Shown here: piece after piece, positions 25,880 through 53,315 of the stretch
Numbering within the stretch: the stretch's first letter is position 1
How the letters are laid out: every line of letters starts with the position of its first letter
Assembly (NCBI RefSeq): GCF_055900595.2
Contig: NZ_CM148325.1
Strand: one strand, 5' to 3'
DNA length: 64,000 nt
Notes under the pieces: model-generated
Seen by the model: only the letters and a program-made list of their open reading frames with translations
Database searches by the model: none
Told to the model about the DNA's origin: nothing
Translations under genes and position numbers: made by a program

Positions 25880-27520
25880 TCAGAACTCAAAATTCACACC
25901 AGCATTCCACGATGCGGATGACCCACCTGCAGCAACTGCAACTTTTCCTGCCACATTCTCTGTGAAACGGTAGCCCACGCCCACCGCAATGGCCTGCTCA
26001 TCACGGTAACCACCAACGGCTGCTGTCGCGTTAAATTTTCCAACACTGTATGGCTGGAAAAGACCGGCCAGTGCCGCGCTCTGGGCTGCACTCTCCCTTA
26101 ACTCCTTCCGGTTCTCTTTAATCTGCTCCTGCATATTATTCATTCTCTCTGTCGCCATCTTCTGCCAGGCTTCCGTCAAATCCAGACGATGACTGTTATT
26201 CCTTATCGCTGCTGTATTTGAGGCTATTGCTGCATCCGTCTGCGCCACCGCTGCCGATGTGACTGCAATAATATCCCTGCTGAGTTCATCACGTACTGCT
26301 GTAACCTGACTGTCAGTATGAGCACGGGCATCTCTGTATACACCGCCTATCTCACCACGCAGACTGTCTCCCTCTGCCTTCAGTTCATCACGTACTGCTG
26401 TGACCTGACTGTCAGTATGAGCACGGGCATCTCTGTATACACCACCTATCTCACCACGCAGACTGTCTCCCTCTGCCTTCAGTTCATCACGTACTGCTGT
26501 GACCTGACTGTCAGTATGAGCACGGGCATCTCTGTATACACCGCCTATCTCACCACGCAGACTGTCTCCCTCTGCCTTCAGTTCATCACGTACTGCTGTG
26601 ACCTGACTGTCAGTATGAGCACGGGCATCTCTGTATACACCACCTATCTCACCACGCAGACTGTCTCCCTCTGCCTTCAGTTCATCACGTACTGCTGTGA
26701 CCTGACTGTCAGTATGAGCACGGGCATCTCTGTATACACCGCCTATCTCACCACGCAGACTGTCTCCCTCTGCCTTCAGTTCATCACGTACTGCTGTGAC
26801 CTGACTGTCAGTATGAGCACGGGCATCTCTGTATACACCACCTATCTCACCACGCAGACTGTCTCCCTGTGATTTCACTTCAACCCCAAGGTTGCGGGTA
26901 CGATTATCCAGCTCCACGACGAATTCTTTAACAGGGACTGTCTGAGCATTTCCGTCAGCCCTTCCGTCAGCAGTGATTCGGCCTGATGAATCCAGAACAA
27001 AATTCTGGCCTTCAACTACATTTTTATACAATGATGACAATCCCGATGTTGTATTACTAATTTTAATAAAATCCTCAGCGGTACCACCAGCATTAACAGC
27101 GGCGATATAATCATCCTTGTTTTCTGGCTTGATTATTTTTTGTAGTGATTCTTTTGTATCAACAATGGACTTTATATCTTCTGCTTTTATATTTCTGATG
27201 TTTTCGGCTTTTAATGCATCTGAGTAGATGGGGTAAGTTAGCAAATCCTGAGCAACAATATGCCTAGCATTCTCAGGAGCTGCTAATATAGCACGCGTAA
27301 TAGAATCATTCGGGACAATACGCCCTGTATTAGCTCCAGTAATAGTATTAATAAGATTAACATCATTACCTTTTGATATTACTGCCGCACCATTATCATA
27401 CAGAGTAACCTCATATCCATCTACATTAAAACTCTCTTCTGCCATAACCCCCACAGAGTAACATAACAGCGCACCGGTAACCGCCATTGCCAATACATTC
27501 TTTGCCATTATAAATTTCAT
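25880..27520 (-). CDS. YadA-like trimeric autotransporter adhesin (Eib immunoglobulin-binding-family-like)
   Basis: 546 aa; signal peptide; six tandem 33-aa coiled-coil repeats; C-terminal anchor [63 protein letters not shown] resembles YadA/Eib membrane anchors. Confidence 0.75.
26283..26872. repeat. Six tandem copies of a 99-bp repeat (two alternating variants) inside the adhesin gene
   Basis: GTCAGTATGAGCACGGGC recurs at 26312, 26411, 26510, 26609, 26708 and 26807 (period exactly 99); variants alternate CACCGCC/CACCACC. Confidence 0.9.
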
Positions 27521-28545: not shown

Positions 28546-30396
28546 TCACCGTATTCTCTGAAACAGGCCCCAAATCGTCCCAATGATATTATTGACTGTC
28601 ATGTTAGTTGTGCATAACATCCATGTACCAAGCATATGATTGCCAAATAAAAAGCGGATATCTGTAAGTTTATCCGATGACGACGACACAATAACGGCCT
28701 GTCTGATACGATACCCGGGTATTTCACGGGTATTTGTTACCTCATGATTTCGTTCTATGATCCCCAGAACATAAGACCCCACGGAATAAACACTTCCGAC
28801 GCTCGCTGGCTGCCCCGGCTGTCCCTGCGGACCTGCCGGGCCGCGTGCACCTGTATCGCCCTTTAGTCCCTGAGGACCTGCCGGGCCGCGTTCACCTGTA
28901 TCCCCCTTTAGTCCCTGTGGACCTGCCGGACCGCGTTCACCTGTATCGCCCTTTGGTCCCTGTGGGCCACGCTCCCCCTGGGCTCCCAGCTCTTTCCATT
29001 CAGACCAGGGGCCATTACCGGTAAAATTACCAGTAACAGTTCTTACGAACTTTCGTGGTGGGTTCCAGGTTGTATATTCATGCTGGCAATATCCCCATGC
29101 ACCAACTCTTACCTGAAGATAACCCGCTCTCTGAATCGGATAATTATTTTCTCGTGTAGCCCCACTGTCTGATGGCTGATAATAATCACCCTGATCGGTC
29201 ACTCGTCCCAGTCGGTTCAGATCACCATTCAGCAGTTGTCCACGGGCTGACTCTCCTCTTGGTCCCTGAGGGCCTTCCGGACCACGTGCACCTGTTTCGC
29301 CCTTTGCTCCCTGTGGACCTGCCGGGCCGCGTTCACCTGTTTCACCTTTTGGTCCCTGTGGACCTGCCGGGCCGCGTTCACCTGTATCCCCCTTTAGTCC
29401 CTGTGGACCTGCCGGACCGCGTTCACCTGTTTCACCTTTTGGTCCCTGTGGTCCTGCCGGGCCGCGTTCACCTGTTTCACCCTTTGCTCCCTGTGGACCT
29501 TCCGGGCCACGTTCACCTGTATCGCCCTTTAGTCCCTGTGGACCTGCCGGACCGCGTTCACCTGTTTCACCTTTTGGTCCCTGTGGACCTCCCGGATCTC
29601 CTTTATCCCCCTTAGGGCCTTTTTCTCCTCGCTCACCCTTTTCTCCCTTCAGACCCTGAGGGCCTTCCGGACCACGTGCACCTGTTTCGCCCTTTGCTCC
29701 CTGTGGACCTGCCGGGCCGCGTTCACCTGTTTCACCTTTTGGTCCCTGTGGACCTGCCGGGCCGCGTGCACCTGTTTCACCCTTTGGTCCCTGAGGACCT
29801 GCCGGGCCGCGTTCACCTGTATCGCCCTTTAGTCCCTGTGGACCTGCCGGACCGCGTTCACCTGTTTCACCTTTTGGTCCCTGTGGTCCTGCCGGGCCAC
29901 GTGCTCCTGTTTCACCTTTTGGCCCCTGTGGCCCGGTAATGCCTCTTTCACCACGTGCGCCGGTATCCCCTTTCTCTCCTCGTGGTCCCCGGGCAGATGC
30001 AGCTCGTTTCCGGGCTTCCTCCGCCTCAGATGCCGCGGACTCTGCTCTGTGCAGTATGGACTGCACCACAGCCTCCAGCTCTGACAACGCCTTCGGATAA
30101 TAAGGAGCATCTTCCATCTCCATCAGAAATTTATTCAGTGTTCCCGGTGAAGAATCCTCCCTGACCACGATATCTCCCACATACGAAGGACGGTAACCTT
30201 CTGTATTGAGTGTCACCCTGTATATTCCTGGCTCCACATCCATACTGTAACTCCCCGTCTCTTCCGGCATGCCATAAGCCACTGTCGTGGCGATGACTGT
30301 CTCGCTGGTTCTCTTCGCTTTCAGCTCAATAATGCATCCCGGTACCGGTTTTCCGGTTCCGTCCCTCAGCACGCCTGAAATTTTTACAGCCGCCAT
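28546..30396 (-). CDS. Side tail fibre protein with collagen-like Gly-X-Y repeats (lambda Stf-like N-terminus)
   Basis: 616 aa; N-terminus [29 protein letters not shown] resembles lambda Stf; long [19 protein letters not shown] collagen-like tracts. Confidence 0.85.
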
Positions 30397-30468: not shown

Positions 30469-30714
30469 TTACTTCACGCACGAAACTTTCGTAAACATAT
30501 CTTCACTCACCCACTGACCATAAAATCTCGGAGCTGATACTTTATACACAGTGCCGCTTTTCGTTTCTATTTTCCCTGTAAGATCTACCGTATAAGCTCG
30601 CTGTAAAACCCCGGGACTCAGCACACCGGTGCACCGGACTCTCTCCGTAACGGAACGGTACCCCGCGCAACCTGATACAAGAAACAGCAAAAAAGTGCAG
30701 ACGATTATTTTCAT
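30469..30714 (-). CDS. Small lipoprotein, 81 aa (possible Cor-like superinfection-exclusion protein)
   Basis: Signal peptide with lipobox LVSGC; size and position just distal to J match Cor-type lipoproteins of lambdoid phages; sequence similarity unverified. Confidence 0.45.
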   Translation of the reverse strand: MKIIVCTFLLFLVSGCAGYRSVTERVRCTGVLSPGVLQRAYTVDLTGKIETKSGTVYKVSAPRFYGQWVSEDMFTKVSCVK

Positions 30715-30735: not shown

Positions 30736-31398
30736 TCAGTACGCATCATAAATTTCTGCATTTATGTAATAACAGAGGTTATTAACAACACCTGAATTAT
30801 CATTGGGCGCCGCTACGTTATCTTCAGCAAAAGTTGACTGACGCCATAACTGTGAGTTTCTGGCATTAAAACTGGCGGTATACCAGTAATAACTCTCCCC
30901 TTCCTGAACTGTCGTCCACTGGGTACACCCCGGCATTACGGCCACATCATGTCCCACACTGATCGGTACATCCTTTTCCCATATTCGCGTCATTTTTACT
31001 TCCAGTGGCAGCATTTCCGTGTTCCAGACCACCCTGCCATGACTGTCGCACAACTGTATTCCCCATTGCGGCCATACATTCACCATGTTGGCAAAAACAT
31101 AAACAACATATGTGCTGTCCTGTTCCATGCCCGGCTCCTGCCCTGTACCAGCGCTGAAAATGTCATACTGCCAGGTACCGTTAAGCTGAACCATTTCACC
31201 ATGGAAGGACTGATTACCGCTTATCTGTTTAATAAAAATCACGCAACGATAATTCGTCGGCACCCCGGTGTCGATAAACTGCATCACCGCATCACGCGCA
31301 CTCAGTGTGAAATGAAAACGGCGCACAAGGTTCAGTGGCGGCGCAACAGGTGATATCCATTCTCTCCCCCGCTCATCAGTTAATTTAAGTGCAAACAT
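30736..31398 (-). CDS. Hypothetical phage protein, 220 aa
   Basis: ORF track; Trp/Tyr-rich; sits where lambda carries lom. Confidence 0.5.
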   Translation of the reverse strand: MFALKLTDERGREWISPVAPPLNLVRRFHFTLSARDAVMQFIDTGVPTNYRCVIFIKQISGNQSFHGEMVQLNGTWQYDIFSAGTGQEPGMEQDSTYVVYVFANMVNVWPQWGIQLCDSHGRVVWNTEMLPLEVKMTRIWEKDVPISVGHDVAVMPGCTQWTTVQEGESYYWYTASFNARNSQLWRQSTFAEDNVAAPNDNSGVVNNLCYYINAEIYDAY

Positions 31399-31658
31399 CA
31401 GATCCCCCTTATCATGACCAGCACGGGTCTTAGCCAGCTTGTGTTGGCATAGTGCACTGTCCAGCCGGATACACTGGCACTGGTATGACTTCCCTGACCG
31501 TTAATCAGAATGGCCGGTGAACAGACTTCCAGACGCCAGCCCTGCAAAGGAGTATAAGAACGCTGCCCCGTCCCTTCAGTGATCACATCCAGCACCCCTG
31601 TTGGGTTTATTTCATGTGTCACAAGGCGCCCTTTGCGCCATACCCGGACTCCGAACAT
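31398..31658 (-). CDS. Hypothetical phage protein, 86 aa
   Basis: ORF track; start overlaps the J stop; coupled to the downstream ORF. Confidence 0.45.
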   Translation of the reverse strand: MFGVRVWRKGRLVTHEINPTGVLDVITEGTGQRSYTPLQGWRLEVCSPAILINGQGSHTSASVSGWTVHYANTSWLRPVLVMIRGI

Positions 31659-34600
31659 TACAGTCTCCCCAGTCGTACTCTTAACACATTGTTATCGTCA
31701 TATACGTCGATTCGCTCGCCATTGAAAAACAGGCGGCCTGCGCCGGGCCTTCCTGAGTTAATTTCAAGGCTGCCGTTTCTTGATAAACGCCACCCCGGAC
31801 TACCGGAATGAAAATTATCTGACCGGATATCTCCCGTCACTCTGGCAAAATCCACGGTCAGTTTTTTCATGAAAACATCATTCATGAACAGCTGATCACC
31901 CTGAGCCACAAACAAAGGTGTTGTATTGCCATTTTCCGGGTTAATCATCACAATACGATCTGCCTGCATCAGGATCTGACTCTGAATTCCGTCAGACGTA
32001 TTTTCGATTCCGGCACCAATACCTGCAATATAGAGACGTCCATCCCGTGTCTGCTGCAGCTTCACAGCCCACATGCTGTTCAGGTTCCGGCGCGTGTCCT
32101 CCTGAACTTTCTGTATCTGCTCAATGCTGGCATTCCAGGATCCCAGTTTTTTATCCGTGCTCTGTTTGATCTGACTTCCCTTATCATCAACATACTGTCT
32201 GATCTGCGCTATCTGTCGGCTGTTCTCCTCCGTGCTCCTGCTTACTGTCTGCCGGATTTCGCTGCCCATCCTGTCAACTTTTCTGTCAACTTCCGCAATG
32301 GCCATTGACTGTTCACCGCTCTTTTTCGCCACAACCGTACTTATTTCCGCACTTTTATCATCAACATACTGCCTGACCTGCGCTATCTGTCGGCTGTTCT
32401 CCTCCGTGCTCCTGGTTACTGTCTGCCGGATTTCACTGCTCACGCTGTCAACTTTCCTGTCGACTTTCGCAATGGCCAGCGACTGTTCACCGCTCTTTTT
32501 CGCCACCAGTTCCGTTATGCTGTTTTCAGACGCCGTGATTTTTTTCGTCACCTCTGCGATATCACGCTCCGCACGCTGCCTCACATCTTTCTCCAGCTGC
32601 GTCATTTCGCGGTTAATCTCATTCTCCAGTTGCTCAACTTCAGTGCGCAGTGCAGAGGCATCAATGCGTTCATTGATCTCCCGTCCCAGATGCGTTTTAT
32701 TTATCGCCCCCCTGAAAAAATTAAGGTAAGCGGCAGGATCATTACTCGGTTGACCGACTGCCTCCACGAATGCCGATTTACCGACAGTGTTAACACTGCG
32801 GATATAAAAGTAATAATCATGGCCCGGCTTAATATTGATACTGGCGGCTATCCAGTACAGCGCCGTGCCAAGATAGCGGGCTGTGGTTTCAACCTGCCTG
32901 ATATCGGTAATCCGCGTTTCCGAGAACCAGAACTCAAACTGTACCGTCGGGTCATAAACGGCAAGATGCGGCGTGGCGGTTATCTGAAAATAGCCCGGCG
33001 TCAGCTCAATCCGCGACGGCGCTGCCGGTGCGGCAATCCGGAACGATACCGACGCCGGGTCTCCCTGCTGCCCCCGGGCATTTACCGCCCGGACCGTCAG
33101 CGTGTAACGCCCCAGCGCCAGTTGCCTGAAGCGGTATGTGGTTTCCGTCGTCCGGGCCGTGCTGACCAGCCGCTCACTGCCGTCATCCGCTGCCACGGTC
33201 AGGCGAAGCAGGAAGCTCACGCCCTTCACCACCTTCGGCGTGTCCCAGCGCGCCAGCACCTGATATTCCCCGCTGTCTGCGGTGACTTCTGCGGTCAGGT
33301 GCTGCACCGCTGGCGGCGTGACACCATTCACCGTTCCGCTCTGGTCGCCGTCAAAGTGCGCCCCGTTATCCACGATGGCCTCTTTTTCCGGTACATGCTG
33401 CACGGCAGTGATGGCATACGTGCCGTCGTCGTTCTCACGGATACTCACGCAGCGGAACAGGCGCTGGCGCAGCGTCGGCAGCTTCAGCCCCCACACGCTG
33501 TATTCAGCAACGCCGTCAGGAACACTGCTCACTTTCACCTTCACGCCGTCAGTGACGGACTGAACCTCCACGCTGACCGGATTGCCACTTCCGTCAACCA
33601 GGCTTATCAGCGTGGTACCGGAGGATGGCAGCGTGATTTCACGATCGAGCGTCAGCGTCCGGGTCTGGCTGTTCACCGCCAGCACGCGCCCACCGGTGCT
33701 GATACCGGCATAGTCATCATCACAGATTTCAATGACATCGCCCGGCACATGGCGAAGCCCTTCGGCACCCACGCTGAAGTCCACGGTCTGCGTTTCCAGC
33801 AGCTCCGTTTTAATCAGCCACAGCCCGGCGCGGTGTGCCTGCCCCCGGCTGGTACAGCCAAAGGCATCCATCTTCGTGACGTTACGACCGTAACGGGCAA
33901 TGGCCTGCGTGTCCTCCACAAGCTCTGTCGCCGTCTCCTGGCCGTTATCCGGGTCACTCCAGTTCACCTCAACGGCATTATGGCGGTCCTTCAGGGCGCT
34001 GAAGCTGTAGCGGAACGGCGCGCCATCATCCGGCATCACCACATTACTGCGGTTATAGGTCCACACCTTATCCGACGGTCGGTCCTGCACGAACGTCAGC
34101 GTCTGCCCGTTCCATACCGGCATACAGCGCATCGCCGAGCAGAAATCACTGAGCACATCCCACGCCTTACGCTGCCTGGTCAGCCAGGCATTACAGGTGA
34201 TGCGCGGCTCCGTGCCACCAGAGCCGTCCGGCACCGACTGGTCGCAGTACTGGCCGATGACATACAGCGCCCATTTGTCCACATCCGCTGCGCCAACACG
34301 TTTCCCCATGCCGTAGCGCGGGTGGGTCAGCATATCCCACAGACACCAGGCCGGGTTATCGCTGTATGCCGGTTTAAACGTTCCGTCCCAGATACCGCTG
34401 TATTGCCGCGTCTGCGGGTTATAGTTCGACGGCACCTGCAGAATGCGCCCGCGAAAATGATAATTACGGCTCACCTGCTGGCTGCCGAACTCCTCCGAAT
34501 CCACCTGCACACCGACCAGTGCCGTGTTCGGGTAGCACTGTTTCACATCGATGATTTCGGTGTATGACGACCAGAGCGTTTTGTTCTGCAGCTGGTCTGT

Positions 34601-35167
34601 GGTGCTGTCCGGTGTCATCCTGCGCATCCGGATATTGAACGGGCGCGGCGGCAGGTTATCCACCACCACCGAAGCCAGATACTGTGAAGTGGTTTTTCCC
34701 TTAATGGTGATGTCTTTTTCCGTTAACCAGCGACCGTTACGCTGTATCTGAACCAGCAGGCGGACTTCCGACGGATTCCGGTCCCCCTTTGAGGTGGTTT
34801 CCACCAGTGCCTGCACACCGAAGGTCAGGCGCAGACGGTCGATGTTTGCCGACGTGATGGTCCGGGTAATCGGCGTGTCGTACTTCACTTCCGTACCCAG
34901 CACCGTCTCGGAGCCGGAGGATTCAAATCCCTCCGGCGGCGTCTGCTCCTGCTCACCGGCCCGGAACACCACCGTGACGCCGGAGATATTGGTATTCCCC
35001 TCACTGTCCAGCACCGGCGTACCGTTCAGCAGCACGCTTTTTAATCCATCCACCGGTCCTTGTATCGGCCCTTCGCTGATGACATCGATCACACTCAGCA
35101 ACTGCGTGGACTTCAGGTTGTCCTTCGCTTCGCGCGGGGTATGCCCCTTACTGCTGCCTTTACCCAT
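31658..35167 (-). CDS. Tail tip host-specificity protein (lambda J-like)
   Basis: 1169 aa; N-terminal two-thirds resemble lambda J; C-terminal region divergent with an internal duplicated ~49-aa segment. Confidence 0.9.
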
Positions 35168-37213: not shown

Positions 37214-37542
37214 CAGTTCACCACCTGTTCAAACTCTGCGCTGAACTCAACACGCAGCATACTGACCCGCGACGACCATTTTGCGCAGGTCACCTTTATC
37301 TGCCGCCACTCATAAGGCGGCGTCCACAGAAAGGCTTTCCAGCCCCCGTGCTCTTCCAGAAACGACTCCAGCGCCGTGGCCTCCCAACGGGGGACAGAAA
37401 GCGTCACGCTGTACGTTTTCAGGTTGGCATTCAGCCCGGCAGGCGCTCGCTGGGAATAGCCATCACCAAAGCGCACCTTTCTTACAGAAGGGGCCGAAGC
37501 CACATCCATACCGGGTTTCACTTTCCAGCGGAAGGTTTTCAT
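37213..37542 (-). CDS. Minor tail protein M
   Basis: 109 aa MKTFRWKVKPGMDVASAPSVRKVRFGDGYSQRAP, lambda M-like. Confidence 0.9.
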   Translation of the reverse strand: MKTFRWKVKPGMDVASAPSVRKVRFGDGYSQRAPAGLNANLKTYSVTLSVPRWEATALESFLEEHGGWKAFLWTPPYEWRQIKVTCAKWSSRVSMLRVEFSAEFEQVVN

Positions 37543-40118
37543 CGTCCACCTCCGGAGAACAGGCCACCATCGCGCATCTGTGCCTGGATTTCATCACGGG
37601 CACCCTTGCGGGCCATGTCATACACCGCCTTCATCATCTGTGGACCTGGCAGACCATTCGTACCGTCGTTCTGAATCACCACGTTGTTGTTCTGCTCAAA
37701 CCTGATACCCTCTGAACGCCGCATTTGCGCCGGACTTCCGGTGCCACCGACATAACCGCCGGTGGCATAGCCGCGCATCAGCCGGTAGAGATTTCCCACG
37801 CCAATCCGGCTGGTTGCCTCCTTCGTGAAGACAAACTCACCACGGTGAACAATCCCCGCTGGCTCATATTTGCCGCCGGTTCCCGTAAATCCTCCGGTTG
37901 CAAAATGGAATTTCGCCGCAGCGGCCTGAATGGCTGTACCGCCTGACGCGGATGCGCCGCCACCAACAGCCCCGCCAATGGCGCTGCCGATACTCCCGAC
38001 AATCCCCACCATTGCCTGCTTAAGCAGAATTTCTGTCATCATGGACAGCACGGAGCGGGTGAAGCTGCGCCAGTTCTGTTCACTGCCGGTCAGCATCGCC
38101 GCCATATTCTGCGCAATACCATCAAAGGTCTGCGTGGCAGCACTTTTAACCTGCGACATACTGTCCGTGGCGCTCTCTTCCCACTCACTCCAGCCGGACT
38201 TCAGGCCTGCCATCCAGCTCCCGCGAAGCAGGTCTTCAGCCGCCCAGGTCTTTTTCTGCTCTGACATGACGTTATTCAGCGCCAGCGGATTATCGCCATA
38301 CTGTTCCTTCAGGCGCTGTTCCGTGGCTTCCCGTTCTGCCTGCCGGTCAGTCAGCCCCCGGCTTTTCGCATCAATGGCGGCCCGTTTTGCCCGTTGCTGC
38401 TGTGCGAATTTATCCGCCTGCTGCGCCAGCGCGTTCAGGCGCTCCTGATACGTAACCTTGTCGCCAAGTGCAGCCAGCTGGCGTTTGTACTCCAGCGTCT
38501 CATCTTTATGCGCCAGCAGGGATTTCTCCTGTGCAGACAGCTGGCGACGTTGCGCCGCCTCCTCCAGTACCGCGAACTGACTCTCCGCCTTCCACAAATC
38601 CCGGCGCTGCTGGCTGATTTTCTCATTTGCTCCGGCATGCTTCTCCAGCGTCCGGAGTTCAGCCTGAAGCGTCAGCAGGGCAGCATGAGCACTGTCTTCC
38701 TGACGCTCTCCCGCAGACACCTTCACGCCGGACTGTTTCGGCTTTTTCAGCGTCGCTTCATAATCCTTTTTCGCCGCCGCCATCAGCGTGTTGTAATCTG
38801 CCTGCAGGATTTTCCCGTCTTTCAGTGCCTTGTTCAGTTCTTCCTGACGGGCGGTATATTTCTCCAGCGGTGTCTGCAGCCGTTCGTAAGCCTTCTGCGC
38901 CTCTTCGGTATATTTCAGCCGTGATGCCTCAGAGTCGGCCCAGTCCTTTGCTGCCATCTCTCTGGCCTTTTCAAGATCGGCCTGCAACGTGGCGGCTGAA
39001 AGCCCAAGTTGCGCATTCGCTCTGTCCTCCCATGCTCCCCGGAGATTGGCAAGAAATGCTGAGGTTTTACCGCGCCGGTGGCTCCGGCTCTGATACCACT
39101 GCCATTTTTTGTCCGCCTCATCAAAAGCCTTTTCTGCTTTCTCCAGCATTTCCCGGGCAGTGTCCGGGCGACCAATATCCAGCACCGAATCCCACATGGA
39201 TTTGAATGCCCGCGCTGTCCTGTCTGCCCAGGTCTCCAGCGTGCCCATGTTCTCTTTCAGGCGGCGGGTCTGGTCATCAAACCCTTTCGTTGCGGCCTCG
39301 TTCGCCGCCTGCAATGCCCCTGCCTCATCGCCGGAACGCTGCAACTGAGCAACATACGCAATCTGCTCCGCCGTCACGTTATGGAACTGGCGCGCCATCG
39401 CCGTCAGCCCCGACGTCGGGTCTGTGGTCAGCTTCCCGAAGGCTTCAGCGACCTTGTCCACCTCCACGCCGGATGCAGAGGAGAAACGCGCCACACTCTG
39501 GCTGATGGACGCAATCTGAGCCTCACCGCTTACCCCCGCCTTAACCAGTGCGCTGAGTGACTCGCTGGTCTGGTTAAACGTCAGCCCTGCCGCCTGCCCG
39601 GCTCTGGACAGGACCAGCATACGATCTGCCGTCAGACCCGACTGATTGCCGGAAAGGACCAGCGTTTTGTTGAAATCGGACAGGGTTGAGTTGCCCTGAT
39701 ACCAGGCATACGCCAGCGCACCGGTCGCCACCGCCAGCGAGGTGGCCCCGACCATCGGCAGGGTGATCGCACCGGCAAGCCCCCTGAACATGGGGATCAT
39801 CCCGCCGAAGGAGTCCTTCACCTGACCGCCCTGTTGCAGCAGGATCAGCCACGGACTCTGCCCGCCTGCAAGCTGTGTGGCCACGTCGGTGAACTGTGCA
39901 GGCAGCATACGCATGGCGGCTTTATACTGTCCGACGGAAATCCCCGCTTTCTGTGCAGCCAGCGCCTGTCGGCTCAGCGACTGTTCAACGACTGCCGCTG
40001 TTTTTTTCGCATCACTTTCCGTACCGGAAAAATGACGCCTGACTCTGGCCATCTGCTCGTCAAATCTGGCCGCATCCAGACTTAAATCAACGACCAGATC
40101 GCCTACCGGTTCAGCCAT
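37539..40118 (-). CDS. Tail tape measure protein (lambda H-like)
   Basis: 859 aa MAEPVGDLVVDLSLDAARFDEQMARVRRHF; coiled-coil-rich; lambda H-like length and sequence. Confidence 0.92.
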   Translation of the reverse strand: MAEPVGDLVVDLSLDAARFDEQMARVRRHFSGTESDAKKTAAVVEQSLSRQALAAQKAGISVGQYKAAMRMLPAQFTDVATQLAGGQSPWLILLQQGGQVKDSFGGMIPMFRGLAGAITLPMVGATSLAVATGALAYAWYQGNSTLSDFNKTLVLSGNQSGLTADRMLVLSRAGQAAGLTFNQTSESLSALVKAGVSGEAQIASISQSVARFSSASGVEVDKVAEAFGKLTTDPTSGLTAMARQFHNVTAEQIAYVAQLQRSGDEAGALQAANEAATKGFDDQTRRLKENMGTLETWADRTARAFKSMWDSVLDIGRPDTAREMLEKAEKAFDEADKKWQWYQSRSHRRGKTSAFLANLRGAWEDRANAQLGLSAATLQADLEKAREMAAKDWADSEASRLKYTEEAQKAYERLQTPLEKYTARQEELNKALKDGKILQADYNTLMAAAKKDYEATLKKPKQSGVKVSAGERQEDSAHAALLTLQAELRTLEKHAGANEKISQQRRDLWKAESQFAVLEEAAQRRQLSAQEKSLLAHKDETLEYKRQLAALGDKVTYQERLNALAQQADKFAQQQRAKRAAIDAKSRGLTDRQAEREATEQRLKEQYGDNPLALNNVMSEQKKTWAAEDLLRGSWMAGLKSGWSEWEESATDSMSQVKSAATQTFDGIAQNMAAMLTGSEQNWRSFTRSVLSMMTEILLKQAMVGIVGSIGSAIGGAVGGGASASGGTAIQAAAAKFHFATGGFTGTGGKYEPAGIVHRGEFVFTKEATSRIGVGNLYRLMRGYATGGYVGGTGSPAQMRRSEGIRFEQNNNVVIQNDGTNGLPGPQMMKAVYDMARKGARDEIQAQMRDGGLFSGGGR

Positions 40119-48599: not shown

Positions 48600-49277
48600 A
48601 TGTCCATCATTTTTAATGGACACTATCGTATGAAACACCGGACCTGGATCACTGAAGCTTTACGTCTTCACTTTGAAGAACATTTACCCCGGGTTGTGGC
48701 CGGGCGTCGCCTGGGTGTACCAAAATCAACAGTTTGTAGTATGTTCGTGCGCTTTCGGAGAGCTGGCCTTTCGTGGCCTTTGCCCGCAGGCATGTCGGAG
48801 CAGGAACTTGATGCCTGCCTTTACGGACAATTTTCCACGGTACCAGTCGTACGTCCTGAAAGCACCGTTATATCCGAAGCCCCCGTGGTAAAAAAACGTC
48901 CCCGGCGGCCCAACTTCCCTTATGAGTTTAAAATCGCCTTAGTGGAGCAGTCACTGCAGCCCGGAGCCTGTGTGGCGCAGATCGCCCGGGAAAACGGAAT
49001 CAACGATAACCTGCTCTTCAACTGGCGCCATCAATACCGGAAAGGTGGCCTGCTGCCTTCCGGAAAAAATATGCCGGCACTGCTTCCCGTGACGTTAACG
49101 CCGGAGCCGGATAATAAAATCCCGGCCCCCGCACAGGAACCAGAGCGGATAAATACACCGTCCGACAGTCTGTGTTGTGAGCTGGTTCTGCCGGCCGGAA
49201 CTCTCAGGCTTAAAGGTAAACTGACGCCGGCGTTATTACAGACACTTATCCGCGAAATAAAAGGGAGCAGCCACTGA
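48600..49277 (+). CDS. IS66-family accessory protein (orfA/TnpA-like)
   Basis: First ORF of the IS; start uncertain (alternative Met at 48630); HTH-like N-terminal region. Confidence 0.65.
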   Translation: MSIIFNGHYRMKHRTWITEALRLHFEEHLPRVVAGRRLGVPKSTVCSMFVRFRRAGLSWPLPAGMSEQELDACLYGQFSTVPVVRPESTVISEAPVVKKRPRRPNFPYEFKIALVEQSLQPGACVAQIARENGINDNLLFNWRHQYRKGGLLPSGKNMPALLPVTLTPEPDNKIPAPAQEPERINTPSDSLCCELVLPAGTLRLKGKLTPALLQTLIREIKGSSH

Positions 49278-49624
49278 TGATATCTCTCCCTGCAGGTTCG
49301 CGTATCTGGCTGGTTGCAGGTATCACCGATATGCGAAATGGCTTTAACGGCCTGGCATCAAAAGTTCAGAACGTCCTGAAGGATGACCCGTTCTCCGGAC
49401 ACCTGTTCATCTTCCGCGGACGCCGGGGTGACCAGATAAAAGTGTTGTGGGCTGACAGTGACGGACTGTGCCTCTTCACCAAACGCCTGGAGCGGGGCCG
49501 CTTCGTCTGGCCAGTCACCCGTGACGGCAAGGTGCACCTTACTCCGGCTCAGTTATCCATGCTTCTTGAAGGTATCAACTGGAAGCACCCGAAACGAACG
49601 GAACGCGCTGGAATCCGCATATAA
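49277..49624 (+). CDS. IS66-family Orf2/TnpB protein
   Basis: 115 aa MISLPAGSRIWLVAGITDMRNGFNGLASKVQNVL, a signature IS66 Orf2 sequence; overlaps orfA stop. Confidence 0.85.
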   Translation: MISLPAGSRIWLVAGITDMRNGFNGLASKVQNVLKDDPFSGHLFIFRGRRGDQIKVLWADSDGLCLFTKRLERGRFVWPVTRDGKVHLTPAQLSMLLEGINWKHPKRTERAGIRI

Positions 49625-49643
49625 CCCGTTGTAAAGTGAGGAT

Positions 49644-51215
49644 ATGGACACCTCACTTGCTCATGAGAACGCCCGCCTGCGGGCACTGTTGCAGACGCAA
49701 CAGGACACCATCCGCCAGATGGCTGAATACAACCGCCTGCTCTCACAGCGGGTGGCGGCTTATGCTTCCGAAATCAACCGGCTGAAGGCGCTGGTTGCGA
49801 AACTGCAACGTATGCAGTTCGGTAAAAGCTCAGAAAAACTTCGTGCAAAAACCGAACGGCAGATACAGGAAGCACAGGAGCGAATCAGCGCACTTCAGGA
49901 AGAAATGGCGGAAACGCTGGGTGAGCAATATGACCCGGTACTGCCATCCGCCCTGCGCCAGTCTTCAGCCCGTAAACCGTTACCGGCCTCACTTCCCCGT
50001 GAAACCCGGGTTATCCGGCCGGAAGAGGAATGCTGTCCTGCCTGTGGTGGTGAACTCAGTTCTCTGGGATGTGATGTGTCAGAGCAACTGGAGCTTATCA
50101 GCAGCGCCTTTAAGGTTATCGAAACACAACGTCCGAAACAGGCCTGTTGCCGGTGCGACCATATCGTGCAGGCACCAGTACCTTCAAAACCCATTGCACG
50201 CAGTTATGCCGGAGCGGGGCTTCTGGCCCATGTTGTCACCGGGAAATATGCAGACCATCTGCCGTTATACCGCCAGTCAGAAATATACCGTCGTCAGGGA
50301 GTGGAGCTGAGCCGTGCCACACTGGGGCGCTGGACAGGTGCTGTTGCTGAACTGCTGGAGCCGCTGTATGACGTCCTGCGCCAGTATGTGCTGATGCCCG
50401 GTAAAGTCCATGCTGATGATATCCCCGTCCCGGTCCAGGAGCCGGGCAGCGGTAAAACCCGGACAGCCCGGCTGTGGGTCTACGTCCGTGATGACCGTAA
50501 CGCCGGTTCACAGATGCCCCCGGCGGTCTGGTTCGCGTACAGTCCGGACCGGAAAGGTATCCATCCACAAAATCACCTGGCCGGTTACAGCGGTGTGCTT
50601 CAGGCCGATGCTTACGGTGGTTACCGGGCGTTATACGAATCCGGCAGAATAACGGAAGCCGCGTGTATGGCTCATGCCCGGAGAAAAATCCACGATGTGC
50701 ATGCAAGAGCGCCCACCTACATCACCACGGAAGCCCTGCAGCGTATCGGTGAACTGTATGCCATCGAGGCAGAGGTCCGGGGCTGTTCAGCAGAACAGCG
50801 TCTGGCGGCAAGAAAAGCCAGAGCCGCGCCACTGATGCAGTCACTGTATGACTGGATACAGCAACAGATGAAAACACTGTCGCGTCACTCAGATACGGCA
50901 AAAGCGTTCGCATACCTGCTGAAACAGTGGGATGCACTGAACGTGTACTGCAGTAATGGCTGGGTGGAAATCGACAACAACATCGCAGAGAACGCCTTAC
51001 GGGGAGTGGCCGTAGGCCGGAAAAACTGGATGTTCGCGGGTTCCGACAGCGGTGGTGAACATGCGGCGGTGTTGTACTCGCTGATCGGCACATGCCGTCT
51101 GAACAATGTGGAGCCAGAAAAGTGGCTGCGTTACGTCATTGAACATATCCAGGACTGGCCGGCAAACCGGGTACGCGATCTGTTGCCCTGGAAAGTTGAT
51201 CTGAGCTCTCAGTAA
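49644..51215 (+). CDS. IS66-family transposase (orfC)
   Basis: 523 aa with leucine-zipper N-terminus, CxxC zinc motif (CPACGG) and DDE core. Confidence 0.88.
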
Positions 51216-51245
51216 ATATCAATACGGTTCTGACGAGTCGCTTAC

Positions 51246-52834
51246 TTCATACGGGCATAGAGAATTTCTTTTGCGGTGTCCGTCCCCACTTCACACAGAT
51301 ACACGCCCCGCTGATTGCGGGTTTTTGGCATGGTGATCACCGGCTTGCCATAGACAGATGCGCCTTTTACCGGCAGCACCCGGAAAACACCGTGTTTTTT
51401 TGACCTCTGATAAACGATTTCGCCATCGATCCCCCCGATGTCCCAGCAGACACGGGAAATGGTCATTTCGGTTCCGTCTGCATGGCGGTATTTTTTGTTG
51501 ATCGCTGCATCCACACGTAACAGCGTCTCTTCCTCATCGGGACGTCCCATAATAATGATTTTATCCACCAGAAAGGCTTCCTCTCCCGGAGCCCATCCCC
51601 AGACATACATCTCAAAACGGTTTCGCTGCGAGTCAATGCCCGCCGTCAGATAAACCACCCGGGCAGGCACCGCCGCCGTGTAACGCACAACCTTATCCAT
51701 CAGTACCTGGTGATCGAGTTTTTCGCCCACGGCCTCTTCCCAGGTCTCGCCCAGCGTGGTGTTCACAAAGGTTTTCAGGCCGTTGGGATCTTTCAGTGCA
51801 TCCAGCCAGTCATAGACTATCTGTACCCAGGTGGTGAACGGACTGTACGCCGTCCAGATATGGAAAGTGATGGAGCGCGGCGGCGGAATTTCATCACCCC
51901 GGGCGCTGAAAAACATCAGGCCGTCACGGGTCCACATGCCCGTGTTTTCAGAGATCCACCGCCCGTTACTCTGGTCAAGCTCAGACTGATGGATCACACA
52001 GCCATGATGCTCACAAAGGTAGAAAACGCTTTCGGGGCTGTCCTTCTCCCATTTAAGGCCAAAAGGCGTGGATTCATCGCCAAATTTCAGATACTGCTCC
52101 TCCCCACAGTGCGGGCAGGGCACATAAAAACGCATGAAATGTGCCGACTCGTTAGCGGCTTTTTCGATCTGGCAGGAGCCTTTGATTTTAGGCGTCGAGC
52201 CGCGAATGGATTTTGGCCATACAGAGCCCTCAATACGCTTATCCCCCAGCAGGGTTGGCGAGCCCTCTTTTTCAACATCAGGTTCAAACGATGAGAGTTC
52301 GTCATAGCAGACCACGTCCACGGATTTTTCACGGTAGTTTTTTGCTGCCGCACCACCCAGGCACCAGAAGCCCACACCCGATGAAAAGCGTTTCAGCGTG
52401 AGAGTATTGTCACGATGTTTACGCCCCAGCCATGGAGAAAGGTCTTTCAGACATGGCACATCCCGAATCGTCGCCTCCACGTGAGACTTCATAAAATCTT
52501 CAGCGGCAGAATCCGTGGGCTGAAAAAGCAGACTGTTTCGGGATTTATGCTCAATAAAATACCCGACCACCCCCAGCAACATCTTTGTATAACCAACACG
52601 GGCAGATTTAATCAGGTTAACAGTGCGAATCAGATCGTTGCCCATACAGTTCATGATGGCGATCTGGAACGGCAGCGTTTTCCATTCTCCCTCACCATAT
52701 GAAGATTCTTTAGGCAGATAATAATTTTGATCAGCCCATTCAACTGCCGTCACCGGCAATGCCCTTATCAGGGGCTGTAATGCTGTTGTGACAGCACTCA
52801 TCATATTATTCAGTTGTTGCTCTGATATATTCAT
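51246..52834 (-). pseudogene. Terminase large subunit A, N-terminal fragment (truncated by the IS insertion)
   Basis: ORF track 51242..52891; lambda gpA-like from MNISEQQLNNMMSAVTTALQ through ...GTDTAKEILYARMK, then a stop contributed by the IS end (GTAAGC). Confidence 0.85.
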
Positions 52835-53315
52835 CGAGTAAATCCGGTAATTTATCCCCTGCCCGCGCACACTGATTTGCCCCCTTCGCAATAAGGGTTT
52901 TCAGATGGTCAAGATGGCGCGGTGTTAAATCAGGAAACTGTCGTTGCATGGATAAAGGGATGGAATCAAGCGTACTGGATAACGCCATTGCCAGCTTGCT
53001 GAGGGCAAAAATACAGAACCCGGTGTCAATAAGTTTTCCTTTTGACACCTCATTTTTTAACTGCTGTGTAACAGCCTGTTCTGCTGTCAGTTCCCATCTG
53101 GCAATAAGCAATTTCTCCTCATAGTCGTCTTCGCTATCGCCATCAGGCACATCGTTTTTACTTCTTCTCAGATACGATATGTAAAAATCACGCCAGGCAT
53201 CCAGATCCAGTTGCCCTCGCTTATTCGATATCGGGGCACCCGGCAATTTCTGCAGTCTGCGAAGCTGGCGATCGGTCAGACTCAAATGCCTGGCAACTTC
53301 AGTCTGCGTAGCCAC
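52806..53315 (-). CDS. Terminase small subunit Nu1
   Basis: 169 aa; N-terminal HTH MATQTEVARHLSLTDRQLRRL; C-terminal half lambda Nu1-like; 3' end overlaps the A start. Confidence 0.82.
   Translation of the reverse strand: MATQTEVARHLSLTDRQLRRLQKLPGAPISNKRGQLDLDAWRDFYISYLRRSKNDVPDGDSEDDYEEKLLIARWELTAEQAVTQQLKNEVSKGKLIDTGFCIFALSKLAMALSSTLDSIPLSMQRQFPDLTPRHLDHLKTLIAKGANQCARAGDKLPDLLDEYIRATTE

What the first reader, a model, noticed from the sequence alone, without database searches (positions are those of the whole stretch)
32200..32560. Internal duplication in the divergent receptor-binding end of the J-like protein
The N-terminal two-thirds of the 1169-aa J-like protein are lambda-like, but the C-terminal region differs and contains two copies of a ~49-aa segment ([44 protein letters not shown]). 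This suggests a different receptor from lambda's LamB and recent domain shuffling.
Basis: partly seen in the sequence, partly recalled or inferred. Interest (0 to 1): 0.3.

Follow-up and report, generated by a model that had tools for sequence, protein, structure and literature searches.

The report
Repeat-length variation in tail-fibre shaft
The duplicated segment is real, but it lies in a helical shaft of a prophage's central tail fibre, not in its receptor-binding end. Its copy number varies between E. coli strains, which is an ordinary kind of tail-fibre length variation.

Summary
The J-like gene (window 31658-35167, minus strand, 1169 aa) holds two tandem copies of a 174-nt / 58-aa unit (aa 888-945 and 946-1003). 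The copies share 146/174 nt and 45/58 aa.

The repeat is not in the receptor-binding end. It sits in a ~175-aa alpha-helical shaft (aa 837-1011) that lambda J lacks, between the lambda-like hub and Ig domains (aa 1-836, 94% identical to lambda) and the beta-prism 'tail tip' domain.

The shaft has an older 29-residue periodicity, and its hydrophobic period is 3.625 residues, which equals 29/8. The 58-aa unit is therefore two older repeats. Near-identical E. coli alleles carry 1, 2 or 3 copies, and some also carry 11-aa or 29-aa duplications. The same shaft occurs with two different distal ends.

The F-pyocin 'fold-switch' reading is possible by position and by profile homology, but its sequence motif is not enriched here.

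Verdict: a new member of a known kind, of low interest.

The parts
31658..35167 (-). J-like central tail fibre gene, 1169 aa, intact ORF
   Evidence: ORF list. Pfam domains FNIII-A_GpJ, Phage-tail_3, Ig_J, Ig_J_second and Phage_Tail_Tip. NCBIfam lambda_TipJ scores 1981.6 bits against a cut-off of 1950.
32660..35167 (-). Lambda-like hub, FNIII and Ig part of J (aa 1-836)
   Evidence: 783/836 residues identical to lambda J with no gaps.
32135..32659 (-). Alpha-helical shaft (aa 837-1011) that lambda J lacks; built of 29-residue repeats
   Evidence: Lambda goes from aa 836 to 841 where this protein has about 175 aa. AlphaFold2 gives a continuous helix over aa 838-975 with block-mean pLDDT 81-92 over aa 840-959. 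The hydrophobic period is 3.625 residues, and a 29-aa self-similarity persists after copy 2 is removed (0.66 versus shuffled 0.09 +/- 0.12).
32333..32506 (-). Repeat copy 1 (aa 888-945), 174 nt / 58 aa
32159..32332 (-). Repeat copy 2 (aa 946-1003), 174 nt / 58 aa
   Evidence: It shares 146/174 nt and 45/58 aa with copy 1.
31856..32134 (-). Beta-rich 'tail tip / central straight fibre' domain (aa 1012-1104), shared with lambda J 841-934
   Evidence: 55% identity to lambda 841-934. The Pfam PF09327 match spans aa 1015-1140. Beta strands in the AlphaFold2 model. The domain ends at the shared junction FMNDVFMK(K/R)L.
31658..31855 (-). Short T1-type distal end of J (aa 1105-1169, ...[15 protein letters not shown]) plus stop codon; replaces lambda's LamB-binding domain
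   Evidence: Aligns to the very C-terminus of T1 gp33, within a match of 25% identity, E 5e-23. The same ending is seen in most distant homologues.
31398..31658 (-). 86-aa ORF directly after J (RefSeq calls a 74-aa version); same position as T1 gp32
   Evidence: ORF list. Annotated as hypothetical in relatives. Only a weak match to phrog_557, E 2.8e-4. No pairwise similarity to T1 gp32.
30736..31398 (-). 220-aa candidate separately encoded receptor-binding protein (T1 gp31 / phrog_425 family)
30469..30714 (-). 81-aa lipoprotein, Cor-like candidate superinfection-exclusion protein
   Evidence: Sequence starts MKIIVCTFLLFLVSGCAG. phrog_1119 Cor at E 8e-7. NCBIfam Cor scores 28.4 bits, below the cut-off of 31. 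28% identity to T1 Cor.

Best explanation
The repeat is a length polymorphism in the alpha-helical, presumably trimeric coiled-coil shaft of the central tail fibre protein J.

The shaft (aa 837-1011) is inserted, relative to lambda J, between the second Ig/FNIII domain and the beta-prism 'tail tip' domain. It is built from old, degenerate 29-residue repeats. Each spans eight helical turns at 3.625 residues per turn.

An older duplication of two such repeats (58 aa, 174 nt) produced the two copies seen here. Recombination or replication slippage between the copies still adds and removes whole units. Near-identical prophage alleles therefore carry 1, 2 or 3 units, and some also carry 11-aa or 29-aa duplications.

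Because the changes are whole multiples of the core periodicity, the hydrophobic seam stays in register and the protein should still assemble (inferred). Each 58-aa unit would lengthen the fibre by about 8.6 nm, assuming about 0.148 nm per residue (inferred). This would move the distal tip further from the tail tube.

The shaft is a separate module from the receptor-recognising end. Here that end is a short T1-type tip, probably capped by the 220-aa protein encoded just downstream, with a Cor-like lipoprotein beside it.

Whether the extra length changes adsorption, for example reach through O-antigen or capsule, or is neutral was not tested.
For: **Shown by the sequence and by computation**
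- The repeat exists.
- It lies in a segment that lambda J lacks.
- AlphaFold2 predicts that segment as one long helix, aa 838-975, with block-mean pLDDT 81-92 over aa 840-959.
- The hydrophobic period is 3.625 residues, and a 29-aa self-similarity survives removal of copy 2.

**Copy-number variation**
- The FFxG...MWAVK segment is 162 aa with one unit (P0007, P0015-17, and the 46%-identical relatives P0023 and P0026).
- It is 220 aa with two units (window, P0002, P0003, P0011, L005).
- It is 278 aa with three units (P0005; L002 and P0006 also carry three copies).
- L002 and P0005 reached three copies by duplicating different units.
- The one-copy allele has a copy-1 head and a copy-2 tail, as expected from a crossover between the copies.
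- An exact 33-nt duplication flanked by CTGGAGAA occurs in L002 and L003. P0083 has an independent 29-aa duplication.

**Age**
- Copy 1 versus copy 2 is 146/174 nt in every allele. The same copy across alleles is 170-174/174 nt. The extra copy in L002 is 173/174 to its neighbour.

**Modularity**
- The same shaft is joined either to the T1-type end plus the downstream cassette (L002, L003, window) or to a lambda-type end plus lom (L004, L005).

**Family context**
- T1 gp33 has its own 33-aa tandem repeat in the equivalent shaft.
- 14 of 101 diverse homologues have a tandem repeat there.
- F-pyocin central fibres have a solved trimeric coiled coil at this position (bioRxiv 10.64898/2026.02.24.707460; PMC12874032). 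A profile of this region matches F2-pyocin fibre residues 841-1199 at E 1.6e-70.
Against: - No trimer could be modelled, so the coiled-coil state is inferred from a monomer prediction, the periodicity and homologues.
- The AlphaFold2 model has low confidence for aa 973-1029, which covers the second half of copy 2 and the link to the prism.
- No functional effect of length has been shown.
- The prophage looks defective: an IS66-family element lies against a truncated terminase gene. This copy of J may therefore be under no selection.
- The shaft variant is rare, found in 22 of 5426 complete E. coli genomes.
- Repeat periods in other homologues (for example 32 and 38 aa) are not all neat multiples of 7 or 11. 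The register-preserving rule is not strict across the family.
Confidence: 0.75

Rival explanations
1. Fold-switch spring. The shaft is a metastable coiled coil that converts to a beta-prism on receptor binding, as shown for the F7 pyocin central fibre. The 29-residue repeat would correspond to one strand plus turn, so the 58-aa duplication would add one beta-hairpin per chain and more stored energy.
For: - The shaft occupies exactly the position of the F-pyocin switching segment, directly upstream of the conserved MWxVK...AGIGLG prism seed.
- A profile of this region matches F2-pyocin fibre residues 841-1199 at E 1.6e-70 and T1 gp33 at E 2.6e-112.
- T1-like phages (TLS, Shfl1) are in the set predicted to switch (PMC12874032).
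- In the F7 pyocin, 163 residues form 5-6 strands, about 27-33 residues each, close to the 29-aa quantum seen here (PMC12874032).
- The low-confidence stretch aa 973-1029 next to the prism would fit conformational ambiguity.
Against: - The published SxSxxMxxLxS pattern, as I encoded it, is not enriched here: 1 hit against 1.03 expected. It is enriched in T1 (6 against 0.8) and F2 pyocin (7 against 1.6).
- Alanine is 7% here against 15-21% in those two, and 35% of residues are charged.
- The window sequence alone does not hit the F2-pyocin fibre.
- AlphaFold2 with an alignment predicted helix rather than strands, although only as a monomer.
- The authors state that lambda and T5 do not show this extensive switch.
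Confidence: 0.12
2. Neutral slippage product. The copy-number changes are selectively irrelevant by-products of recombination between direct repeats in prophages that are often defective, and have no effect on host range or adsorption.
For: - The prophage has an IS66-family element against a truncated terminase large subunit. Relatives also carry IS elements in or next to J and the fibre genes.
- The variant is rare.
- Between the copies, 13 codons differ non-synonymously and 7 synonymously, which gives no sign of strong constraint.
Against: - All observed length changes are in frame and are whole multiples of 11 or 29 residues.
- The ORF is intact over 1169 codons.
- Tandem repeats recur independently in this shaft across distant lineages. 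This suggests length changes are at least tolerated in functional fibres.
Confidence: 0.2
3. The duplication is part of the divergent receptor-binding region and reflects recent shuffling that changed the receptor.
For: The C-terminal third differs from lambda, and lambda's receptor-binding domain is absent.
Against: - The identical two-copy shaft occurs on J proteins with a lambda-type C-terminal domain (L005, P0011).
- The repeat lies more than 100 residues upstream of the point where the alternative ends diverge, at aa ~1101.
- The two copies are older than the allele divergence.
- A separate candidate receptor-binding protein is encoded downstream.
Confidence: 0.04

Closest known systems
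Lambda gpJ (central tail fibre / tip attachment protein J; NCBIfam lambda_TipJ)
   Same: - aa 1-836 are 94% identical to lambda J.
- The hub, FNIII and Ig domains are the same.
- The gene sits in the same place, after the tape-measure, L/K/I-like genes.
- The beta-prism domain is homologous (55% identity to lambda 841-934).
   Different: - It has a ~175-aa helical shaft where lambda has about 5 residues.
- It lacks lambda's LamB-binding domain (aa 935-1132).
- It is followed by a small-gene cassette rather than lom.
T1 gp33 / N15 gp21 / HK022 gp24 type J-like fibres, with separately encoded tip proteins and Cor
   Same: - The C-terminal ~270 aa align to the last residue of T1 gp33 (E 5e-23).
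- The gene order is the same: J, a small ORF, a ~220-aa 'membrane associated protein' (phrog_425), and a Cor-type lipoprotein.
- T1 also has a tandem repeat (33 aa) in its shaft.
- This architecture, a J-like fibre plus a downstream RBP locus and an exclusion factor, is described in PMC8594841, PMC12309495 and bioRxiv 10.64898/2026.04.02.716166.
   Different: - The N-terminal 836 aa are lambda-like, not T1-like.
- The downstream proteins are only 22-28% identical to those of T1, so FhuA cannot be inferred.
- Cor is on the same strand as J here and on the opposite strand in T1.
- The repeat unit differs in sequence and in period (29/58 aa versus 33 aa).
F-type pyocin central fibre protein (PA0641 / F7 CFP): coiled-coil shaft that switches to a beta-prism
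   Same: - A long helical shaft lies between the FNIII domains and a beta-prism seed.
- There is profile-level homology over the whole C-terminal region.
- A separate adhesin attaches at the distal end (PA0642 there; the 220-aa protein is inferred to do so here).
   Different: - The SxSxxMxxLxS pattern is not enriched, alanine is low and charge is high.
- Side fibres there dock on the shaft. Here the side fibre has the lambda Stf-type N-terminal domain (PF08400), which in Ur-lambda docks on gpV/gpM (PMC12617516).
- There is no evidence of switching here.
RBP of phage Oekolampad (Bas18) bound to LptDE (PDB 9rpt chain C)
   Different: - Sequence identity is only 11%.
- Foldseek did not find the match significant (E 0.59, TM 0.42).
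- The model is of moderate quality (mean pLDDT 70).
- Receptor specificity cannot be transferred.

Membership tests
Lambda TipJ central tail fibre | N-terminal hub, FNIII-A, Phage-tail_3 and two Ig-like domains | tested here: met
   Pfam PF24801, PF13550, PF24421 and PF24489, all with E < 1e-38. NCBIfam lambda_TipJ scores 1981.6 bits against a cut-off of 1950. 94% identity to lambda J over aa 1-836.
Lambda TipJ central tail fibre | C-terminal LamB-binding receptor-binding domain (lambda aa 935-1132) | tested here: not met
   BLASTP finds no alignment to lambda 935-1132. The protein ends 65 aa after the shared prism domain.
Lambda TipJ central tail fibre | Position in a lambda-type tail gene cluster | tested here: met
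   The tape-measure gene (37539-40118), the L/K/I-like ORFs and the lambda-family portal, protease and terminase genes lie upstream on the same strand.
T1/N15/HK022-type J-like fibre with separate tip RBP and Cor | J ends in the T1-type distal segment (...GWRL..G..E.N....G.GR......I.V.D.....RV..G.L) | tested here: met
   End-to-end alignment with the T1 gp33 C-terminus. The same consensus appears in a 25-sequence alignment.
T1/N15/HK022-type J-like fibre with separate tip RBP and Cor | A ~200-230-aa 'membrane associated protein' (phrog_425, T1 gp31 family) encoded directly downstream | tested here: met
   phrog_425 at E 3.3e-27 over the full length. T1 gp31 at E 3e-6. 17 invariant columns across 6 homologues.
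T1/N15/HK022-type J-like fibre with separate tip RBP and Cor | A small (~75-100 aa) protein between J and the ~220-aa protein (T1 gp32 family) | tested here: inconclusive
   An ORF of the right size and position exists. The only support is phrog_557 at E 2.8e-4. There is no pairwise similarity to T1 gp32 or to the PhiR5_2 homologue.
T1/N15/HK022-type J-like fibre with separate tip RBP and Cor | Cor lipoprotein (superinfection exclusion) | tested here: inconclusive
   A lipobox-like N-terminus is present. phrog_1119 at E 8e-7. NCBIfam Cor scores 28.4 bits, below the cut-off of 31. 28% identity to T1 Cor. No tblastn hit in the phage collection.
T1/N15/HK022-type J-like fibre with separate tip RBP and Cor | The downstream protein is physically at the fibre tip and binds an outer-membrane receptor (FhuA for T1) | not testable with these tools
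   [not shown]
Fold-switching coiled-coil central fibre (F-type pyocin CFP type) | Long helical or coiled-coil segment immediately upstream of the beta-prism seed | tested here: met
   Predicted helix aa 838-975. Hydrophobic period 3.625 residues. The segment ends at MWAVK...AGIGAG, which aligns with the F2-pyocin MYSVK...AAGWQLG.
Fold-switching coiled-coil central fibre (F-type pyocin CFP type) | Sequence homology to the F-pyocin CFP C-terminal region (the authors used BLAST E < 1e-6) | tested here: inconclusive
   A profile built from this region and its homologues hits the F2-pyocin fibre at E 1.6e-70. The window sequence alone does not hit it at E <= 1.
Fold-switching coiled-coil central fibre (F-type pyocin CFP type) | SxSxxMxxLxS pattern in each prospective strand | tested here: not met
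   With my regular-expression version of the published pattern: 1 hit against 1.03 expected here, 6 against 0.8 in T1, and 7 against 1.6 in F2 pyocin.
Fold-switching coiled-coil central fibre (F-type pyocin CFP type) | Both coiled-coil and beta-prism conformations are obtained (trimer prediction or cryo-EM) | not testable with these tools
   Only single-chain AlphaFold2 was available, and it gave helix.

The most novel reading that the evidence does not exclude
[quoted passage not shown] The one-, two- and three-unit alleles would then be a natural series of 'spring lengths' on an otherwise lambda-like tail. That would give a ready-made genetic system to test whether the switch exists in a lambdoid coliphage and how stored energy or reach scales with length.
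Probability: 0.1. Interest if true: 0.55.

Novelty: new member of a known kind. Interest (0 to 1): 0.22.

Why it matters
- **Annotation.** In this class of J proteins the receptor determinant should be sought in the short distal end and the genes just downstream. The repeat-bearing shaft is not the place to look, and a 'divergent C-terminus' of J is in fact three separable modules: shaft, prism and tip.
- **A natural allelic series.** Alleles with 1, 2 or 3 units of 58 aa exist on a 94% lambda-identical hub, in otherwise near-identical shaft sequence and joined to two kinds of tip. They could be moved into lambda to measure how central-fibre length affects adsorption through O-antigen or capsule. 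They could also test the recently proposed fold-switch mechanism.
- **Overall.** Apart from that, the feature is an ordinary tail-fibre repeat polymorphism in a probably defective prophage.

Tried and rejected
- **Assembly artefact.** Rejected. The two-copy form is present in 21 complete genomes, the copies differ at 28 positions, and one- and three-copy forms come from independent sources.
- **Duplicated side-fibre docking site, as on the F-pyocin shaft.** Considered unlikely. The side fibre here has the lambda Stf-type N-terminal domain PF08400, which in Ur-lambda docks on gpV/gpM rather than on J (PMC12617516).
- **Receptor identity.** This led nowhere. The 220-aa protein has only 22-28% identical relatives among sequenced phages and only two clusters in the large protein database. 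It has no sequence hit among solved structures. The lipoprotein has no tblastn hit in phages. FhuA, LptD or another receptor cannot be assigned.
- **Strict 'periods are multiples of 7 or 11' rule for shaft repeats.** Only partly borne out across the family: periods found were 10, 21, 32, 33, 38, 49 and 84 aa.
- **Long plus-strand ORFs inside J** (32232-32729 and 32630-34567). Treated as antisense artefacts of the J reading frame. They were not examined further.
- **Specialised diversification machinery.** None was seen: no reverse transcriptase or invertase among the neighbouring ORFs that were scanned.
Full report
**1. The observation**

The J-like ORF runs on the minus strand from 35167 to 31658 and encodes 1169 aa. 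Tandem Repeats Finder reports a 174-nt period with 1.9 copies, 92% matches, no indels and score 568, at 32181-32506. The repeat finder reports 152 nt at 92% identity with 174-nt spacing.

In the protein the unit is 58 aa. Copy 1 is aa 888-945 (window 32333-32506) and copy 2 is aa 946-1003 (window 32159-32332). They share 45/58 aa and 146/174 nt, and most differences fall in the last eight codons.

**2. Where the repeat sits**

BLASTP against lambda J divides the protein into four parts:
- aa 1-836 are 94% identical to lambda J, with no gaps.
- aa 837-1011 have no lambda counterpart; lambda goes from residue 836 straight to 841.
- aa 1012-1104 are 55% identical to lambda 841-934.
- aa 1105-1169 are a short end. 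Lambda's receptor-binding domain (935-1132) is absent.

Pfam agrees. It finds FNIII-A, Phage-tail_3 and the two Ig-like J domains, and then Phage_Tail_Tip at aa 1015-1140. The repeat therefore lies in an inserted segment between the Ig/FNIII domains and the beta-prism 'central straight fibre' domain. It does not lie in the distal end.

**3. What the segment is**

AlphaFold2, run as a single chain with a 25-sequence alignment, predicts one continuous helix over aa 838-975, with block-mean pLDDT 81-92 over aa 840-959. Confidence is low for aa 973-1029, and the model is beta-rich from there on.

The hydrophobic residues have a sharp periodicity of 3.625 residues, which equals 29/8. The segment is also similar to itself at a shift of 29 aa as well as 58 aa. 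The 29-aa signal remains after copy 2 is removed (mean BLOSUM 0.66 against 0.09 +/- 0.12 for the best shift of shuffled sequences). When the sequence is written in rows of 29 residues, conserved I, A and V columns are visible across aa 859-1032.

The shaft is therefore an array of old 29-residue repeats, and the 58-aa unit is two of them. I infer a trimeric coiled coil from three things: this periodicity, the three-fold symmetry of J in lambda and T1, and the solved coiled-coil shaft at the equivalent place in F-type pyocins (bioRxiv 10.64898/2026.02.24.707460; PMC12874032). A trimer could not be modelled with the tools available.

**4. Copy number varies**

Near-identical alleles in complete E. 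coli genomes and in the protein database differ in unit number.

| Length of the FFxG...MWAVK segment | Units | Examples |
|---|---|---|
| 162 aa | one | P0007, P0015, P0016, P0017 |
| 220 aa | two | window, P0002, P0003, P0011, L005 |
| 278 aa | three | P0005 |

L002 (NZ_CP033635) and P0006 also carry three copies. More distant relatives at ~46% identity (P0023, P0026) also have one unit, so one copy looks ancestral.

Further points:
- The one-copy allele within the close group has a copy-1 head and a copy-2 tail. This is what a crossover between the two copies would leave.
- L002 has the order 1-1-2 and P0005 has 1-2-2, so the expansions were independent.
- L002 and L003 carry an exact 33-nt (11-aa) duplication, LENAINREMTQ, flanked by CTGGAGAA.
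- P0083 has an independent 29-aa duplication in a diverged lineage. P0001 has a further 29-aa duplication, but it comes from a single short contig and should be treated with caution.

On age: copy 1 versus copy 2 is 146/174 nt in every allele, whereas the same copy in different alleles shares 170-174/174 nt. The extra copy in L002 is 173/174 to its neighbour. The two-copy state is therefore older than these alleles, and only the later gains and losses are recent.

This shaft variant is rare. It occurs in 22 of 5426 complete E. coli genomes, many from poultry, and often in more than one prophage per genome.

**5. The shaft is a module separate from the receptor end**

The same two-copy shaft is joined to two kinds of end:
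- the short end seen here, followed by the small-gene cassette (window, L002, L003);
- a lambda-type C-terminal domain followed by lom (L004, L005, P0011).

The sequences diverge at a shared junction, FMNDVFMK(K/R)L. This is also where the similarity to lambda ends. The distribution contradicts the idea that the duplication belongs to, or reports on, the receptor-binding end.

**6. The actual distal end and its neighbours**

The last ~270 aa of J align to the very C-terminus of T1 gp33 (25% identity, E 5e-23). In T1 the order is gp33, gp32 ('outer membrane protein', 101 aa), gp31 ('membrane associated protein', 229 aa) and Cor. Here J is followed by three genes:
- An 86-aa ORF. Its only support is a weak phrog_557 match, with no pairwise similarity to T1 gp32.
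- A 220-aa protein. It matches phrog_425 at E 3.3e-27 and T1 gp31 at E 3e-6.
- An 81-aa lipoprotein. It matches phrog_1119 Cor at E 8e-7. NCBIfam Cor scores 28.4 bits, below the cut-off of 31. It is 28% identical to T1 Cor.

Published work proposes that in T1-like, Dhillonvirus and phi24B-like phages the J-like fibre lacks a receptor-binding domain and is capped by proteins encoded in this locus, with exclusion factors alongside (PMC8594841; PMC12309495; bioRxiv 10.64898/2026.04.02.716166; bioRxiv 10.64898/2026.04.10.717836).

I conclude, as an inference, that the 220-aa protein is the receptor-binding cap. The receptor itself cannot be named. Identities to characterised phages are only 11-28%, and no closer relative was found.

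**7. Mechanism proposed**

Shown:
- a register-compatible repeat array in a predicted helix;
- in-frame gains and losses of whole units among close alleles;
- independence of the shaft from the tip module.

Inferred:
- The changes arise by unequal recombination or slippage between the 174-nt copies and at short direct repeats.
- Each unit adds about 8.6 nm of fibre (58 x ~0.148 nm), which lengthens the distance between the tail tube and the tip protein.

Not tested: any effect on adsorption or host range.

The prophage appears defective. An IS66-family element lies against a terminase large-subunit gene whose nuclease-domain match stops at position 221 of 294. Neutrality is therefore a real alternative for this particular copy.

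**8. The fold-switch alternative**

A 2026 preprint shows that the 163-residue coiled coil of the F7 pyocin central fibre refolds into a beta-prism of five to six strands. It also predicts the same behaviour for many siphophage fibres, including T1-like phages (PMC12874032).

In favour of that reading here:
- The shaft occupies the same position, directly before the conserved prism seed.
- A profile of this region matches the F2-pyocin fibre over residues 841-1199 (E 1.6e-70).
- The 29-residue quantum is close to the per-strand length implied for F7.

Against it:
- The published SxSxxMxxLxS pattern, as I encoded it, is not enriched here (1 hit against 1.03 expected). It is enriched in T1 (6 against 0.8) and in F2 pyocin (7 against 1.6).
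- The shaft is poor in alanine (7%) and highly charged (35%).
- The window sequence alone does not hit the pyocin fibre.
- The monomer model is helical.

I give this reading about 10-12%.

**9. Comparison with what is known, and verdict**

Tandem repeats in this shaft recur in the family. T1 gp33 has a 33-aa repeat, and 14 of 101 diverse homologues have one. Lambdoid phages with a J-like fibre plus a downstream cassette and Cor, such as N15 and HK022, are named as the relatives of T1 gp33, gp32, gp31 and Cor in the notes of the T1 GenBank record.

The protein passes the NCBIfam lambda_TipJ threshold but fails the one lambda feature that matters for receptor choice. Its distal end belongs with the T1 type.

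This is a new member of a known kind: a mosaic J with a polymorphic repeat shaft. Its interest is low. Its main value is a natural one-, two- and three-unit allelic series on a lambda-like hub, which could be used to test how central-fibre length, or a putative fold switch, affects infection.

Noticed in passing
window 25880-27520 (minus strand); repeat array 26283-26882: A 546-aa protein with a YadA-like membrane anchor (PF03895), so probably a trimeric autotransporter. It contains 6.1 tandem copies of a 99-nt / 33-aa unit at 98% identity. It lies downstream of the tail-fibre genes and is a second repeat-bearing, probably coiled-coil, surface protein in the same prophage.
   Followed up: partly
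window 28546-30396 (minus strand); arrays 28821-28965 and 29259-29931: A 616-aa side tail fibre with the lambda Stf-type N-terminal domain (PF08400) and long collagen triple-helix repeats (45-nt period). The equivalent gene is 442 aa in L003 and 601 aa in L005, so side-fibre length also varies between close relatives.
   Followed up: partly
window 48600-52891: An IS66-family element (HTH transposase ORF at 48600-49277, IS66 transposase at 49644-51215) lies directly against the terminase large-subunit gene (51242-52891, 549 aa). The terminase nuclease-domain match stops at profile position 221 of 294. The prophage is probably unable to package DNA.
   Followed up: partly
[not shown]
   Followed up: partly
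L009 (phage T1), gp33 at about aa 905-1000: T1's J-like protein has its own 33-aa tandem repeat (DIREVIATETEALSREIDQLKAQIGDDIQASLT) in the equivalent shaft, with a hydrophobic period of about 3.675 residues. Across 101 diverse homologues, 14 have shaft repeats, with periods of 10, 21, 32, 33, 38, 49 or 84 aa.
   Followed up: partly
P0001 (E. coli, single 2974-nt contig): This allele has a 29-aa duplication in the shaft and a second duplication of about 27-29 aa inside the beta-prism domain ([27 protein letters not shown] twice). It could be real or an assembly error.
   Followed up: no
window ~31856-31880 (J aa ~1096-1104) and the same site in L004, L005 and lambda: The conserved motif FMNDVF(M/L)K(K/R)L marks the exact point where alternative distal ends (T1-type or lambda-type) are joined to the shared prism domain. 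It looks like a recurrent recombination junction.
   Followed up: partly
L002, L004 (E. coli relatives): In related prophages, IS elements (IS1414, IS66) interrupt the J C-terminus or the side-fibre gene, so this tail-fibre region is a frequent insertion target.
   Followed up: no
window 32232-32729 and 32630-34567 (plus strand): Long antisense ORFs (165 and 645 aa) overlap J. They are most likely by-products of the J reading frame rather than genes.
   Followed up: no
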